In this document: positions 1 through 56,400 of the stretch, one piece after another
How the letters are laid out: each line of letters begins with the position of its first letter
Position numbering within the stretch: position 1 is the first letter of the stretch
NCBI GenBank assembly: GCA_951406725.2
Contig: CATOCA020000001.1
Span: 7,316,001-7,380,000 of the forward strand
DNA: 64,000 nucleotides
DNA from: Octopus vulgaris
Lineage: Eukaryota
Direction of reading: 5' to 3'
Program-made: the position numbers

Positions 1-2253
1 GTGTAAGTGTTCAAGTACTCGTCGGTCACTCAGCAAAACCTCTGTCTCGACGAAATTCCTGGTCAGTGCTGAAGAAAGAGAAGACAAAATTGGCGGAGGA
101 GACTAAGATCGTTACAAGTGCTAAACCACACTGCATCGCTCTGAACTGTGTAACATCGTGCTACACAGCGCTGCACCACACCTCGAATGGCAGATCGTTT
201 CTTATACAAAAAGAGACGCATTAAATGGCAGTGGAATGGCTTCTCTAGAAAGCACGTTCCAGCAAACAGCATTTCGAGTCGTGTGTAAGAGATCGCTTTT
301 GTCTCGTTCTTTTCGAATGAGAGGGAAATAAAGAAATATTATCACCCAAGATGGTAAAGCTGTTTTTATATTTAGTGAGGATGAGAGAGAAATACGTTTA
401 AACAGAGGAAACTGGGATTCAAGGTTTTGACAAATATAACAATTATTAAGGACCATCTGGATGCTGTACAAAGGAACTCGTCTACGAACAAACGGTGGAT
501 GTCAATACTCTGAAATTATTGAAATAACTCAAGAAGTTATCTACTTAAACAAGAAAATATTAAATGAAATCTCGGCAGGAACAAAAGGTTTATGTTTTCT
601 GGGGTGAAGCTACACAAGATTCTGTGAATATATGTCATTCATCTGATAATGTAATCAAAGAATGTTTAATGGAAGTGTGTGATGTAGAACGTGCAATCGG
701 CTGAGGGACAGAGGAAATGATCTTACTTTTATAGGTAAGACAGGACTAACCGATAAAAAACAAGCTGTCAGTTCTAAGATGGCGTTGCTAAAATGAATGG
801 AGTTATTGAGGAGTTTCAGTTTCGAATTCTCCTTTCTACAATGTAAAATATTTGTATGTTCACTGACATTCACTCAACTCTCTGGCAGAAAATCCAGCTG
901 TATCATATTGAATCACGAGGGTTTGGTAAATCTCGCCGCAATACAGCCAGGTACCGTCTGACTTTTCTGGATTCCCTGGTAAACGAAATATACAGGGAAA
1001 CTAGTGACCCCCAGCTCAGTATGACCCCCTTCTGTAAATATCTGTCTATATAATTCTTTTTCAGCAGAATGTAGGAGGGTCGACTCAAACGCAATGACAA
1101 AGTGAATCTTGCTCTTCACACAGAGCAAGAAGATGACTCTAAATAATTTGATAAACTCGGCCCCTCTCCTCCTAGGAAGGTCTGTTAGGCTAATCTTTTC
1201 AATCCCTTCCGTTTCATTGAACTATTTCCTAATTTCTACCATAAGCACGTGGAGGGGCATAATCGATTATATCGACACTGGAATGCGACCGAGGCGTTAT
1301 TTTATGATCTGCAGATGGATGAAAGATGAAACAAACTTGAGCAGGTTTAAATTTAAAACATTATGTCAACACCGAAAAGATGAAAGCTGGAGATGACCTC
1401 GGCAGAATTTGAACTCAGAAAGTACAGACGGATTAAATGCTGTTCAGCATTTTGTCCGGCGTGTTAACGACTCTACCAGTTCACCGCCTTTCTGAGGTAA
1501 TTAATTTTGTCAAATGTTTTCGCATTGTAAAAAAAAATCTCGTTAGCGAGTTTGGTTGGCTGAAAGTGAAAGAAGGAAACCAACACAGAAGCAGAGAAAG
1601 AAAGAAATAAAGAAAGAGAGAAAGAAAGATAAGAAAGAAAGGACGGAAGAATGGAAGGAAGAAGGAAAGAAAGGAAGGAAGAAGGTAAGAAAGAAAGAAA
1701 GACGGACAGGAAGAAAGAGAGAAAGGAAGAAAGAAAGAAAGAAAGAAAGGAAGAAAGAAAGAAAGAAATAAAGAAAGAAAGAACGACTGAAAGACTGAAA
1801 GGAAGAAAGAAAGACTGAAAGAAAGAAAGAAAGGAAGAAAGAAAGAAAGGAAGGAAGAAAGAAAGAAAGGAGGGAAGAAAGGAAGAAAGAAAGAAAGAAA
1901 GGAAGGAAGAAAGAAAGAAAGGAAGGAAGAAAGAAAGAAAGGAAGAAAGAAAGAAAGGAAGGAAGAAAGAAAGGAAGAAGAAAGAAAGGAAGAAAGAAAG
2001 AAAGAAAGAAAGGAAGGAAGAAAGAAAGAAAGAAAGGAAAGAAAGAAAGAAAGAAAGAGAAAGAAAGAAAGGAAGGAAGAAAGAAAGAAATAAAGAAAGG
2101 AAGAAAGAAAGGAAGAAAGGAAGAAAGAAAGAAAGAAAGGAAGAAAGAAAGGAAGGAAGGAAGAAAGAAAGAAAGAAAGAGAAATGAAGGAAGAAAGAAA
2201 GAAAAAGAGAAAGGAGAGATAGATAGAAATGAAGAATGAAAGAAAGAAAGAAA

Positions 2254-2306
<53 letters not shown>

Positions 2307-2646
2307 GAAGAAAGAAAGAAAGAAAGAAAGAGAGAAAGAAAGAAAGGAAGGAAGAAAGAAAGAAATAAAGAAAGGAAGAAAGAAAGGAAGAATGGAAGAA
2401 AGAAAGAAAGGAAGAAAGAAAGGAAGGAAGGAAGAAAGAAAGAATGAAGAGAAGAAAGGAAGAAAGAAAGAAAAAAGAAAGGAAAGAAGAAAGAAAGAAA
2501 GGAAGGAAGAAAGAAAGAAAGAAAGAAGAAAGAAAGAAAGAAAGAAAGGAAGAAAGAAAGAAAGAAAGAAAGAAGGAAGAAAGAAAGAAAGGAAGAAAGA
2601 AAGAAAGAAGAAGAAAGAAAGAAAGAAAGAAAGGAAGAAGGAAGAA

Positions 2647-2690
<44 letters not shown>

Positions 2691-2721
2691 GAAGAAAGAA
2701 AGAAAGAAAGAAAGAAAGAGA

Positions 2722-2770
<49 letters not shown>

Positions 2771-53183: not shown

Positions 53184-53220
<37 letters not shown>

Positions 53221-53238
53221 TTTCTTTTTCTTTCTTTT

Positions 53239-53273
<35 letters not shown>

Positions 53274-53427
53274 CTTCTTTCTTTCTTCTTCTTTTCTTTC
53301 TTTCTTTCTTTCTTTCCTTTCTTCTTTCTTCCTTTGTTTCTTCCTTCCTTTCTTTCCTTCTTTCTATCTTCCTTTCTTTCTTCCTTCCTTTCTTTCTTTC
53401 TTTCTTTCTTCCTTTCTTTCTTCCTTC

Positions 53428-53460
<33 letters not shown>

Positions 53461-56400
53461 TGTCAGGCGTTCTTTCTTTCTTCCTTTCTTTCTTTCTTTC
53501 TTTCTTTCTTCCTTTCTATCTTTCTTTCTTCCTTTCTTTCTTCCTTCCTTTCTTTCTTCCTTTCTTTCTTTCTTTCTATCTATCTTTCCTTTCCTGTTTT
53601 TCTTTCTTTCTTCCTTCATTTCTCTCATTCTTTCTTTCTTCCTTCCTTCCTTTCTTTCTTCCTTTCTTTCTTCCTTTGTCATTGCGTTTGAGTCGACCCT
53701 CCTACATTCTGTTGAATAAGAATTATATAGACAGATATTTACAGAAGGGGGTCATACTGAGCTGGGGGTCACTAGTTTCCCTGTATATTTCGTTTACCAG
53801 GGAATCCAGAAAAGTCAGACGGGACCTGGCTGTATTGCGGCGAGATTTACCAAACCCTCGTGATTCAATATGATACAGCTGGATTTTCTGCCAGAGAGTT
53901 GAGTGAATGTCAGTGAACATACAAATATTTTACATTGTAGAAAGGAGAATTCGAAACTGAAACTCCTCAATAACTCCATTCATTTTAGCAACGCCATCTT
54001 AGAACTGACAGCTTGTTTTTTATCGGTTAGTCCTGTCTTACCTATAAAAGTAAGATCATTTCCTCTGTCCCTCAGCCGATTGCACGTTCTACATCACACA
54101 CTTCCATTAAACATTCTTTGATTACATTATCAGATGAATGACATATATTCACAGAATCTTGTGTAGCTTCACCCCAAAAACATAAACCTTTTGTTCCTGC
54201 CGAGATTTCATTTAATATTTTCTTGTTTAAGTAGATAACTTCTTGAGTTATTTCAATAATTTCAGAGTATTGACATCCACCGTTTGTTTGTAGACGAGTT
54301 ACTTTGTACAGCATCCAGATGGTCCTTAATAATTGTTATATTTGTCAAAACCTTGAATCCCTGTTTCCTCTGTTTAAACGTATTTCTCTCTCATCCTCAC
54401 TAAATATAAAAACAGCTTTACCATCTTGGGTGATAATATTTCTTTATTTCCCTCTCATTCGAAAAGAACGAGACAAAAGCGATCTCTTACACACGACTCG
54501 AAATGCTGTTTGCTGGAACGTGCTTTCTAGAGAAGCCATTCCACTGCCATTTAATGTGTCTCTTTTTGTATAAGAAACGATCTGCAATTCGGGGTGTGGT
54601 GATGCGCCGTGTAGCACGATGTTACACAGTTTAGAGCGATGCAGTGTGGTTTAGCACTTGTAACGATCTTAGTCTCCTCCGTCAATTTTGTCTTCTCTTT
54701 CTCAGCACTGACCAGGAATTTCGTCGAGACAGAGGTTTTGCTGAGTGACCGACGAGTACTTGAACACTTACACTGACTCACACTCTGGCAATTAACATCG
54801 TCCTTCGTTCCTGGACAGATACAAATCAATCAAGAAATAAATAAAGACAAACTGTCCTGCACACCGTTGCACATGCCGGATGATGCAATGTTCAGATGAA
54901 ATCTGGGCAGTCATGTATGTATTCCACCGCGTACCAAAAGCTTGGGTCTGGTTCACCAGTAGCCAGATCATATGTGTATGTCCATGTATAATTCATGCCG
55001 TCGACATATCTGGGTTTGTTGCCATTTTCGCCTGACCCCCAACAGTAAGAAAACCTCAGAGACAAATGCAAAAGCATGAGATTCTTCTAATAAAGATTGT
55101 AAGTGTCCTTTCATTGGGGTTGGTGGCAGGTGACAGAAATGTATGTGAGATCGTCTCTATGGAAAGCAGCTTGACAAATCCTCACACGGGGCTCTTCTAC
55201 TTTGCCCCTTTCCCGTTTGTGTTGAGCATGTTCCATAACGGAATCAATGTCGTTATGTACCAATTTGGAAACGTGCGTGAAAGGAGCAGAGTTCGTCATC
55301 GCGCGACAGACGGAATCTGGGTCCTTGGCAATAACTTTAGTGAGCAGCGCAAAATGTAGAATTCATGTCGTCGGATAAAACTAAAATCGGTGCACCAGGC
55401 AACATCGCAACCCTTAGTGTGGATCAAAGTGGATAGCTGCTCTACTAAGTACATCACACCCAAACAGTAAATGCAGTCGTATGCAGACATCATTTTAGTC
55501 ACGAATGTACAGTCAACCGCGTGAATTTCGGTTTCATTTATACGAACGACGAAAGTATTTCCCGCCCTCTGACTTCCCCTGTTGCGTGATTTAGCTTGTT
55601 GATCACGATGTAGCTTGGTGTAATGCGGTGTTGTGCGGTGCAATGGGGAGAAGCGCAGCAAAATCTTCATAGCTCTGTTGTTTGCCAGTTGAGATCCAAC
55701 AGATGCTTGCTGTTCGTCACTTCAAACTGTGGGTCTTTGTGGTATGCAAGCAATCATTTTCGACTCAATTTATACGAAGGAAAGGCTGACCACGAGTTTG
55801 GTGGTTAACAATTTCGTCGGACGACCAAGTGGACGTTATCAGTGGTGGGCCGCTGTTCAAGTGGTTTGCAGGACACACGAATACACACGACACGTCTGTG
55901 TCTTCGCAATTAGCCGGAGAGGGTTGAAGATGCCGATGTACTGGCGGCCACTGGATGCGGTAATTCACGCGGTCTCCCCGCTCGCCACCAGACGTTTATT
56001 TTCCGTATTTGGACGTATCAACAGCTAGCAGGTAGAATAAGAGACGGACATACACAGAAGGTGTCCGTCGGCGAACTGTTGGGCAACGAATAGAGATAGA
56101 GAGGGAGGATCTTCCTATGAGAGGCCGTTATTTGACGAGCGATTGATGACGACTCTGAACCTTTGCTACACTCGCACGCTTCAATTACTGAAACGGCTCC
56201 GTCCCCTAATAAACTCGATACACTTGGCTATTAAGCAAGGAATTGTGGCCACGAAACTGGCCGCACCCGTCGGATGTTACTCTGACCACCTTCATTTCAC
56301 AGATGTGTCTGCACATTCATCACTCTTTCCAGCCTCCCACTCCAATTTCGAACACTCTTACCACTGAACTGGGATGTTTCGCCAAGACAGTTCTTCTGTG

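What the first reader, a model, noticed from the sequence alone, without database searches (positions are those of the whole stretch)
1..54773. Giant (>54 kb) diverged palindrome with arms evolving separately
Seen: positions 1-25437 recur collinearly in reverse complement at 27341-54773, and the left arm runs off the window. The arms differ by substitutions, insertions, deletions and satellite copy number, which argues against a simple fold-back read artefact. Established: large palindromes arise by fold-back priming or breakage-fusion-bridge, and can be maintained by arm-to-arm conversion as on the mammalian Y. Inference: this is a real, long-lived palindrome; two haplotypes misjoined head-to-head is the main alternative.
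Basis: partly seen in the sequence, partly recalled or inferred. Interest (0 to 1): 0.9.

Follow-up and report, generated by a model that had tools for sequence, protein, structure and literature searches.

The report
Giant inverted duplication, probably misjoined haplotypes
Two 27-kb stretches of repeat-rich animal DNA lie head to head around a 13-base turn and differ by about 2% plus separate mobile-element insertions, which fits two parental copies joined wrongly by the assembler somewhat better than a true old palindrome.

Summary
Positions 1-25437 recur collinearly in reverse complement at 27341-54773.

The centre was misread. The "1.9-kb spacer" ends in a second direct copy (27108-27313) of the inner 203 bases of the left arm. 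That copy pairs with 27341-27543, leaving a loop of only 13 nt (27321-27333) and an axis at 27327.

Both arms are real DNA. They differ at 160 of 7817 unique sites (2.05%), with 14 small indels and ts/tv 1.08. Each carries its own mobile elements: a Penelope-like retroelement on the left and a SINE on the right, in the same (TA)n tract. One tandem array shows 4 versus 13 copies of its 236-bp unique part.

A simple fold-back read of one molecule is excluded. Nothing in the window decides between a true palindrome and two alleles joined head to head. The allele-like divergence, the near-absent spacer and the lack of genes favour the misjoin (about 0.6). A real palindrome of some age stays open (about 0.3). 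Upkeep by arm-to-arm conversion of the Y-chromosome kind is not supported. Reads, depth or Hi-C would settle it.

The parts
1..27320 (+). Left arm. It runs off the window at position 1. It includes the 1871-bp segment that the right arm lacks.
   Evidence: Collinear inverted chain; axis found by script.
27321..27333 (.). Central loop of 13 nt, axis at 27327. It is flanked by 7-nt stems (27314-27320 and 27334-27340) with one mismatch (27316/27338).
   Evidence: hairpin fold.
27334..54773 (-). Right arm, the reverse complement of the left arm. Its visible end at 54773 is set by the window edge, not by the structure.
25237..25437 (+). X: the outer direct copy of the 203-nt inner-arm segment.
   Evidence: Three-way alignments.
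27108..27313 (+). X': the inner direct copy of X, 1871 bp downstream. It forms the left stem of the central hairpin.
27341..27543 (-). The single X copy of the right arm. It matches X at 2 outer informative sites, matches X' at 3 inner sites, and has 1 private change. This is the pattern of a single crossover.
25438..27107 (+). Sequence between X and X', present only in the left arm: (TA)n tracts, a full SINE-like element and other unique DNA.
20689..23839 (+). Penelope-like retroelement, left arm only, inserted in a (TA)n tract. It has an intact 714-aa ORF (20922-23066). Its 320-bp inverted terminal repeats (20681-20999 and 23527-23846) are 98.4% identical.
   Evidence: Pfam RVT_1 at 34.1 bits (cut-off 29.6) and GIY-YIG at 21.3 bits (just under the cut-off of 22.6). 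Repeats, junctions. 622 relatives, the best about 60% identical.
28875..29175 (-). SINE-like insertion of about 300 bp, right arm only, in the same (TA)n tract where the left arm carries the Penelope-like element.
   Evidence: Side-by-side reading of both arms.
1103..1585 (+). About 480 bp present only in the left arm, between the outer unique block and the (AGAA)n array.
1595..6659 (+). (AGAA)n array, 5065 bp, left arm.
   Evidence: Tandem Repeats Finder.
49157..53677 (-). The matching (AGAA)n array, read as (CTTT)n on the + strand, 4521 bp, right arm.
10851..14300 (+). Array of units of about 730 bp (a tetranucleotide run plus a 236-bp unique part). The left arm has 4 full unique parts and 1 partial.
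35340..44940 (-). The same array in the right arm, with 13 unique parts. Two of them, 1639 bp apart, are identical, which points to recent local duplication.
17470..19433 (+). Segment with raised arm-to-arm divergence: 56 differences in 1200 unmasked sites (4.7%) against 1.6% elsewhere. Its partner lies at about 30800-32200.
19205..19568 (+). Tandem duplication of 177 bp (2.1 copies) inside a SINE, left arm only.

Best explanation
The two arms are the two parental copies (alleles) of one repeat-rich, gene-poor locus of a heterozygous animal, most likely a mollusc. The assembler joined them head to head at a fold-back point, so the palindrome exists in the assembly and not on the chromosome.

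Shown: both arms are authentic, separately evolved DNA.

Inferred, how the join arose:
1. Contigs of both haplotypes stopped at the same hard-to-sequence place, next to long (TA)n and purine-rich arrays.
2. One or more fold-back molecules made a turn there. Such molecules make up about 0.6% of nanopore genomic reads, and most have little or no sequence between their halves.
3. A graph-type assembler took one branch of each haplotype bubble on the way in and the other branch on the way out.
4. Long-read polishing then sorted each arm to one haplotype.
For: 1. Unique-sequence divergence is 160/7817 = 2.05%, with only 14 small indels. That is the order of allelic divergence in a heterozygous marine invertebrate. 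K-mer heterozygosity of 1.22% and >1.1% is reported for Octopus vulgaris (passages read).
2. The differences are what segregating variation looks like:
- presence or absence of a retroelement with an intact ORF, and of a SINE;
- array length changes;
- an 1871-bp indel bounded by 203-nt direct repeats with a single-crossover pattern.
3. Divergence is uneven along the arms (index of dispersion 2.8-3.2, p 4e-6 to 3e-8). Alleles with a recombination history would show this. A single-age duplication with no conversion would not.
4. The turn is a 13-nt loop with no real spacer. This matches fold-back artefact reads, of which fewer than half have more than 11 bp between the halves.
5. The natural long-lived palindromes I could check have spacers from 77 bp to 358 kb, and the small ones are the least stable.
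6. No Pfam domain in 10 of 10 other long ORFs tested, four from the arms and six from the flank. There is thus no sign of the gene families that are thought to preserve real palindromes.
Against: 1. The asymmetry starts only about 210 nt from the axis (the 1871-bp segment). A fold-back read from one duplex has the same structure on both sides. An overlap-layout assembler that used such a read should therefore leave an inner zone of identical arms at least some kilobases long. None is seen: the longest identical unmasked run anywhere is 465 sites. The misjoin therefore needs a collapsing graph assembler plus polishing, or unusually tolerant overlaps. That is my inference about software I cannot identify.
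2. The stems next to the loop are about as diverged (4 differences in about 210 nt) as the rest of the arms. A palindrome that aged from its axis outward would look like this.
3. The window has no N at or near the axis, so the join is not a scaffolding gap.
4. The organism, its heterozygosity and the sequencing technology are all unknown to me (searches did not identify them).
Confidence: 0.6

Rival explanations
1. A real germline inverted duplication (palindrome) with arms of at least 27 kb. It formed once by fold-back at the 13-nt loop: a broken end turned back on a 4-7-nt inverted microhomology and copied its own strand. It then aged. Both arms gathered substitutions (about 1% per arm), each gained its own retroelement, their arrays drifted in length, and the right arm lost 1871 bp by recombination between the direct repeats X and X'.
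For: - Collinear inverted arms with divergence reaching right to the axis.
- A loop flanked by a short inverted match, as fold-back priming predicts (the mechanism as summarised in the abstract of PMC10622511, seen in the listing).
- Structural asymmetry 210 nt from the axis, which a single-molecule artefact cannot give.
- Rearrangement concentrated near the centre, as in primate X palindromes.
- The uneven divergence could reflect patchy arm-to-arm conversion.
- Gapless sequence across the axis.
Against: - A stem of about 210 nt at about 98% identity with a 13-nt loop is the kind of structure expected to be fragile. [quoted passage not shown] Survival to 2% divergence without a central deletion is therefore unexpected.
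- The divergence falls in the allelic range.
- No host genes were found in the arms.
- The outer junction is not visible.
- No read-level evidence is available.
Confidence: 0.3
2. A simple read-level fold-back: one DNA molecule read down one strand and back up the other, or a missed hairpin adapter, so that both arms are the same piece of DNA and the differences are sequencing errors.
For: - The near-zero spacer.
- The known frequency of such reads.
Against: - The arms differ by a 3.15-kb retroelement, a 300-bp SINE, 480-bp and 1871-bp indels, and 4 versus 13 unique parts in one array.
- Substitutions outnumber small indels 160 to 14, and transitions are 83 of 160. Random error would give about one third (z about 5, my arithmetic on the counts).
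- As far as I recall the usual adapter sequence, the loop does not resemble it.
Confidence: 0.02
3. Another origin of the same picture. One option is two old paralogous copies from different places brought together by a misjoin. The other is a real rearrangement present in only some cells or on one homologue of the sequenced animal.
For: Nothing specific. These remain only because the window gives no depth, phasing or flanking information.
Against: A chance misjoin of paralogues would not place the two copies in exact register around a 13-nt loop.
Confidence: 0.08

Closest known systems
Large palindromes of primate X and Y chromosomes
   Same: Two long inverted arms, here at least 27 kb against 8-140 kb on the human X. 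Structural change is concentrated near the centre of symmetry (passages read).
   Different: - Arm identity there reaches 99.99% and is attributed to gene conversion. Here it is 97.95% in unique sequence.
- Spacers there are 77 bp to 358 kb. Here the loop is 13 nt.
- 21 of 26 human X palindromes carry protein-coding genes in their arms. Here only a retroelement ORF was found.
Fold-back inversions (inverted duplications) made by fold-back priming at a double-strand break
   Same: Head-to-head duplication with a very short unique centre bounded by a short inverted match. The mechanism is as stated in the abstract of PMC10622511, which I saw only in the listing.
   Different: Those are described as fresh events in yeast mutants and tumours, where arms start out identical. 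Here the arms are 2% apart and carry separate insertions. If real, the event is old and inherited.
Fold-back artefact reads in long-read sequencing, and the inverted false duplications they can seed in assemblies
   Same: A junction with almost no intervening sequence. The artefact makes up about 0.55-0.6% of nanopore genomic reads, and recurrent artefact reads at one breakpoint have been reported (passages read).
   Different: An artefact read is nearly perfectly palindromic because both halves come from one duplex. Here the halves differ in structure from 210 nt outward, so at most the turn itself could come from such a read. The paper does not describe assembled haplotype-versus-haplotype palindromes. 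That step is my inference.
Haplotypic (heterotype) false duplications in diploid assemblies
   Same: Two allelic versions of one locus both kept in a haploid representation, differing at about the level of heterozygosity. This is recalled from the vertebrate genome assembly literature and was not read here.
   Different: As I recall, those usually sit on separate contigs or next to gaps, and often in direct orientation. Here the copies are inverted, gapless and in exact register.

Membership tests
Conversion-maintained ampliconic palindrome (primate X/Y type) | Arm-to-arm identity well above 99%, kept up by gene conversion | tested here: not met
   160 differences in 7817 unmasked aligned sites, 97.95% identity. 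No 400-site window has fewer than 2 differences.
Conversion-maintained ampliconic palindrome (primate X/Y type) | A distinct spacer between the arms (77 bp to 358 kb on the human X) | tested here: not met
   The loop is 13 nt. The apparent 1.9-kb spacer is extra left-arm sequence bounded by direct repeats.
Conversion-maintained ampliconic palindrome (primate X/Y type) | Protein-coding gene families in the arms | tested here: inconclusive
   Only a Penelope-like element ORF was found. 0 of 10 other long ORFs, four from the arms and six from the flank, matched Pfam. Spliced genes with short exons were not searched for.
Biological fold-back inverted duplication | Collinear inverted arms meeting at a short unique centre bounded by a short inverted microhomology | tested here: met
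   Chain. A 13-nt loop with 7-nt flanking stems and 1 mismatch.
Biological fold-back inverted duplication | Single native molecules span the junction, and arm copy number is doubled | not testable with these tools
Single-molecule fold-back read artefact | Both halves share the same large-scale structure, because they come from the same duplex | tested here: not met
   An 1871-bp indel 210 nt from the axis, a 3.15-kb retroelement in one arm only, a SINE in the other arm only, and 4 versus 13 unique parts in one array.
Head-to-head misjoin of two haplotypes | Arm divergence comparable to the heterozygosity of the sequenced individual | tested here: inconclusive
   2.05% here against 1.1-1.22% reported genome-wide for one octopus. 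The species of the window was not identified.
Head-to-head misjoin of two haplotypes | Half read depth on the arms, arm variants phasing to opposite homologues, and normal reads leaving the loop into other sequence | not testable with these tools
   This needs the raw reads or Hi-C data of the assembly.
Penelope-like retroelement (the left-arm insertion) | A single ORF with a reverse transcriptase followed by a C-terminal GIY-YIG endonuclease | tested here: met
   RVT_1 at residues 193-380, 34.1 bits against a cut-off of 29.6. GIY-YIG at residues 618-705, 21.3 bits, just under the cut-off of 22.6. Precomputed Pfam labels of the relatives include the same domains.
Penelope-like retroelement (the left-arm insertion) | Pseudo-LTRs, direct or inverted, and a preference for inserting into microsatellites | tested here: met
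   320-bp inverted repeats flank the unit. It is inserted in (TA)n. Both features are as described in PMC8557442 (passages read).
Penelope-like retroelement (the left-arm insertion) | A hammerhead ribozyme motif in the pseudo-LTR | tested here: inconclusive
   Hammerhead_HH9 matches lie in both terminal repeats (20726-20790 on the minus strand, 23737-23801 on the plus strand). They score only 19.7 bits against a gathering score of 52, E = 0.2.

The most novel reading that the evidence does not exclude
The palindrome is real. It is a germline inverted duplication with arms of more than 27 kb and a centre of only 13 nt. It has survived in an invertebrate, probably a mollusc, long enough to reach 2% arm divergence and to take separate retroelement insertions in each arm. 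Its only central change is an 1871-bp deletion on one side, and its uneven divergence would reflect patchy arm-to-arm conversion. That would show that nearly spacerless giant palindromes can persist over evolutionary time outside sex chromosomes and without genes to select for them.
Probability: 0.28. Interest if true: 0.6.

Novelty: not a real feature. Interest (0 to 1): 0.3.

Why it matters
If it is a misjoin, about 27 kb or more of this assembly is a false inverted duplication, and the true sequence beyond the turn is missing from this place. Anyone using the assembly for repeat, structural-variant or copy-number work should know that. The locus is also a clean example of how two haplotypes can pass for an "ancient palindrome".

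If it is real, it would be an unusually long-lived palindrome with almost no spacer and no host genes. That bears on how stable such structures can be in animal germlines. In either case the two arms give a small natural record of which mutations accumulate in this kind of DNA: retroelement gain, array expansion and repeat-mediated deletion.

Tried and rejected
**Organism identity**
- Protein searches with the retroelement ORF and with the mariner fragment gave no close named relative. Best identities were 61% and 72%, and the few named hits were bivalve, bivalve-symbiont bins or a dragonfly.
- A full-text search for a 20-nt SINE core found 0 papers.
- My impression that the SINEs are octopus-type is recalled, not shown.

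**RNA genes**
- No Rfam family reached its gathering score across the whole window. ARAGORN found no tRNA.
- The permissive Rfam scan of 24000-31000 gave 78 sub-threshold hits, almost all microRNA models on (TA)n or (TATG)n hairpins and on the central hairpin. I treat them as chance.

**Dating from within the window**
- The terminal repeats of the retroelement differ at 5 of 320 positions, against 2.05% for the arms. This fits either reading and was not used.

**Other within-window tests**
- I looked for an inner zone of identical arms, or for long identical tracts. The longest unmasked identical run is 465 sites, against a simulated 99th percentile of 465. That is too weak to call a conversion tract.
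- Self-BLAST on the same strand showed only SINE copies and X/X'. The palindrome is therefore not a by-product of dispersed repeats.

**Literature**
- A search for in-contig inverted haplotype duplications found nothing directly on point in the listing or in the one listed paper I opened. One search also gave nothing directly on point.

**Not available or not used**
- No eukaryotic genome collection was available. The same locus in other assemblies or individuals therefore stayed unchecked.
- Supplements of the papers cited for heterozygosity and fold-back rates were not seen.
- Structure, complex and fold-search tools were not used because no protein question arose.
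Full report
**What the window is.** It holds 64,000 bases with no N and about 37% G+C. It has very strong local purine/pyrimidine skew, caused by kilobase-scale (AGAA)n-type arrays.
- About 44% of it is low-complexity by a simple filter.
- No Rfam family reaches its gathering score, and no tRNA is found.
- The only protein domains found are a reverse transcriptase plus GIY-YIG endonuclease in one 714-aa ORF, and a Mos1-type HTH at the right edge.
- Ten other long ORFs have no Pfam match.
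- Relatives of the two transposon proteins are at most 61% and 72% identical. The few named ones come from bivalves, bins of bivalve symbionts or a dragonfly.

The source is an animal, probably a mollusc. My impression that the SINE copies are of an octopus type is recalled and could not be checked (one search found no paper). Nothing suggested human sequence.

**Checking the observation.** Minus-strand self-comparison gives one collinear inverted chain from the window start to 54773.
- L1-1102 with R54773-53674 (98.5%).
- L1985-11325 with R53677-44487 (89%; mostly a 5-kb tetranucleotide array in each arm, 5065 and 4521 bp).
- An array of units of about 730 bp.
- L14301-18929 with R35414-30840.
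- L19382-20688 with R30697-29418.
- L23877-25437 with R28868-27341.

Three SINE copies sit at mirror positions in both arms, so they predate the split. Same-strand comparison finds only SINE copies and one local duplication, so the palindrome is not built from dispersed repeats. Because the left arm runs off the window, 54774-64000 has no visible partner. Neither the true arm length nor the outer junction can be seen.

**The centre is not what it seemed.** Reading 24700-28100 and aligning three pieces shows that 27108-27313, which I call X', is a direct copy of 25237-25437 (X). Both are copies of the reverse complement of 27341-27543. X' and the right-arm copy form a hairpin of about 210 nt per stem, with 3 substitutions and 1 single-base indel. 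The fold energy is -240 kcal/mol, and 0 of 100 shuffles fold as well.

A script places the axis at 27327. The loop is 27321-27333, 13 nt long, flanked by 7-nt stems with one mismatch. The palindrome is therefore almost spacerless.

The left arm carries 1871 extra bases, bounded by the 203-nt direct repeats X and X'. Among six sites that differ between the three copies, the right-arm copy behaves as follows:
- it agrees with X at the 2 outer sites;
- it agrees with X' at the 3 inner sites;
- it has 1 private change.

This is the pattern of one crossover between X and X', that is, a deletion on the right-arm side. With so few sites, it is suggestive only.

**Are the arm differences real mutations?** Yes. 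In five aligned blocks, counting only positions outside low-complexity sequence, the arms differ at 160 of 7817 sites (2.05%) and show 14 small indels of 1-4 bp. Transitions are 83 and transversions 77. Random error would give one third transitions, and the excess is about 5 standard deviations by my arithmetic on those counts. The 11:1 ratio of substitutions to indels is also the opposite of what long-read error produces.

The larger differences are clear biological events:
- A 3.15-kb Penelope-like element at 20689-23839. It has an intact ORF and 320-bp inverted terminal repeats (98.4% identical), and it sits in a (TA)n tract of the left arm.
- A SINE of about 300 bp at 28875-29175, in the same tract of the right arm.
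- About 480 extra bases at 1103-1585 in the left arm.
- A 177-bp tandem duplication at 19205-19568 in the left arm.
- 4 full copies (plus 1 partial) against 13 copies of the 236-bp unique part of the ~730-bp unit. Two right-arm copies 1639 bp apart are identical, which shows recent local expansion.

The features of the retroelement match published descriptions of Penelope-like elements: pseudo-LTRs that may be inverted, and a bias for microsatellite targets (passages of PMC8557442).

A single molecule read twice is therefore excluded.

**Pattern of divergence.** Divergence is not uniform. Counts in windows of 200 or 400 unmasked sites are over-dispersed (index of dispersion 2.8 and 3.2; p = 3e-8 and 4e-6). 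One segment, L17470-19433, has 56 differences in 1200 sites (4.7%), against 1.6% elsewhere. The longest identical run is 465 sites, at the simulated 99th percentile. The stems next to the loop are about as diverged as the arms overall.

There is no gradient towards the axis and no kilobase-scale identical inner zone. This unevenness argues against a single-age duplication that simply ticked along. It fits alleles with a recombination history, and it fits a palindrome with patchy conversion equally well.

**Real palindrome or misjoined haplotypes?** The window cannot decide. The arguments on each side are as follows.

For the misjoin:
- The divergence is allele-like. K-mer heterozygosity of 1.22% and >1.1% is reported for Octopus vulgaris, and repeat-rich intergenic DNA would be above the average.
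- All the structural differences are of kinds that segregate within populations.
- The turn has essentially no spacer. That is typical of fold-back artefact molecules. These make up 0.55-0.6% of nanopore genomic reads, fewer than half have more than 11 bp between the halves, and two artefact reads at the same breakpoint have been reported.
- The well-studied natural palindromes have spacers of 77 bp to 358 kb, with small spacers the least stable.
- There are no host genes for selection to act on.
- The locus is full of (TA)n and purine-rich arrays, where contigs tend to end. A 2026 preprint title and abstract in the listing reports long-read bias against simple satellites. I did not read that paper.

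For a real palindrome:
- Structural asymmetry begins 210 nt from the axis. A fold-back read from one duplex is symmetric. An overlap-layout assembler that used one would therefore leave an inner stretch of identical arms, and there is none.
- To produce the observed picture, the assembler would have had to collapse the haplotypes into a graph, turn at the fold-back, and take opposite bubble branches on the way in and out. Long-read polishing would then have had to sort each arm to one haplotype. That is possible but more elaborate, and it is my inference about software I cannot identify.
- The sequence is gapless across the axis.

Weighing these together with the general rarity of spacerless giant palindromes in curated genomes, I put the misjoin at about 0.6 and a real palindrome at about 0.3. 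The remainder goes to other origins.

**How it would work under each reading.**

Misjoin: nothing "works". The structure is a record of two alleles and tells us about polymorphism at this locus.

Real:
1. A break next to 27333 was resected.
2. The 3' end folded back on a 4-7-nt inverted match and primed synthesis along its own strand, giving a perfect palindrome.
3. Later changes were substitutions in both arms, a Penelope-like element and a SINE landing independently in the same (TA)n tract, array drift, and the 1871-bp X/X' deletion.

The deletion limits hairpin formation to about 210 nt and may have helped the structure to survive. Only the anatomy is shown. Every step of this history is inferred.

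**Comparison with known things.** As a structure, it resembles primate sex-chromosome palindromes. It fails their defining features: identity above 99%, a distinct spacer and gene content. It has the junction anatomy of fold-back inversions, but those are known as fresh events with identical arms. It shares the junction anatomy of fold-back artefact reads, but not their symmetry. In kind it is either a known artefact class or a new instance of a known class of rearrangement. It is not a new kind of system.

**What stayed unchecked.**
- The organism.
- The sequence upstream of the window.
- Reads, depth, phasing and Hi-C.
- The locus in other individuals or species.
- Paper supplements, including the heterozygosity table of the O. 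vulgaris paper and the additional files of the fold-back paper.
- Spliced genes with short exons in the arms were not modelled.

Noticed in passing
window 20689-23839: A Penelope-like retroelement with an intact 714-aa RT plus GIY-YIG ORF and 320-bp inverted terminal repeats. Both repeats carry a weak match to the Hammerhead_HH9 ribozyme model (20726-20790 minus strand, 23737-23801 plus strand; 19.7 bits against a gathering score of 52, E = 0.2). That is where such elements are said to carry hammerhead motifs.
   Followed up: partly
window 63456-63998: An open frame with a Mos1-type transposase HTH domain (PF17906, E = 1e-13) that runs off the right edge of the window, so a mariner-family element or its remnant. 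The best relatives are 72% identical.
   Followed up: partly
window 1595-6659 and 49157-53677: Two arrays of about 5 kb of imperfect (AGAA)n, with 81-82% matches to the unit. They are pure homopurine on one strand. Such tracts can form triplex DNA, and according to a preprint I saw only in a listing they are under-represented in long reads.
   Followed up: no
window 35340-44940: The right-arm array of units of about 730 bp has a higher-order period of about 1.64 kb. The unique parts at 38364 and 40003 are identical, and those at 35984, 39098 and 42911 differ by 0.4-0.9%.
   Followed up: partly
window 17470-19433, partner at about 30800-32200: A 2-kb segment where the arms are three times more diverged (4.7%) than elsewhere (1.6%). 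It coincides with the most G+C-rich part of the arms (44%). The cause is unknown.
   Followed up: no
window 7800-8107, 19205-19790, 24096-24275, 28471-28649, 30386-30714, 47689-48000, 57062-57460: Seven copies of one SINE family, 78-94% alike. Six of them form three mirror pairs in the arms, and one lies in the unpaired right flank. A second SINE-like family occurs at 25757-26040, at 28875-29175, and as fragments at 25017-25130 and 27663-27776.
   Followed up: partly
window 17398-17642 and 32029-32273: These mirror-position pieces also match each other on the same strand (77% over 254 bp). The segment is therefore itself partly self-complementary, a small inverted repeat inside each arm.
   Followed up: no
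window 24000-31000: Dozens of sub-threshold matches to microRNA precursor models (mir-297, mir-3149, mir-5014 and others) fall on (TA)n and (TATG)n tracts and on the central hairpin. All score below their gathering scores, so they are most likely hairpin look-alikes and not genes.
   Followed up: yes
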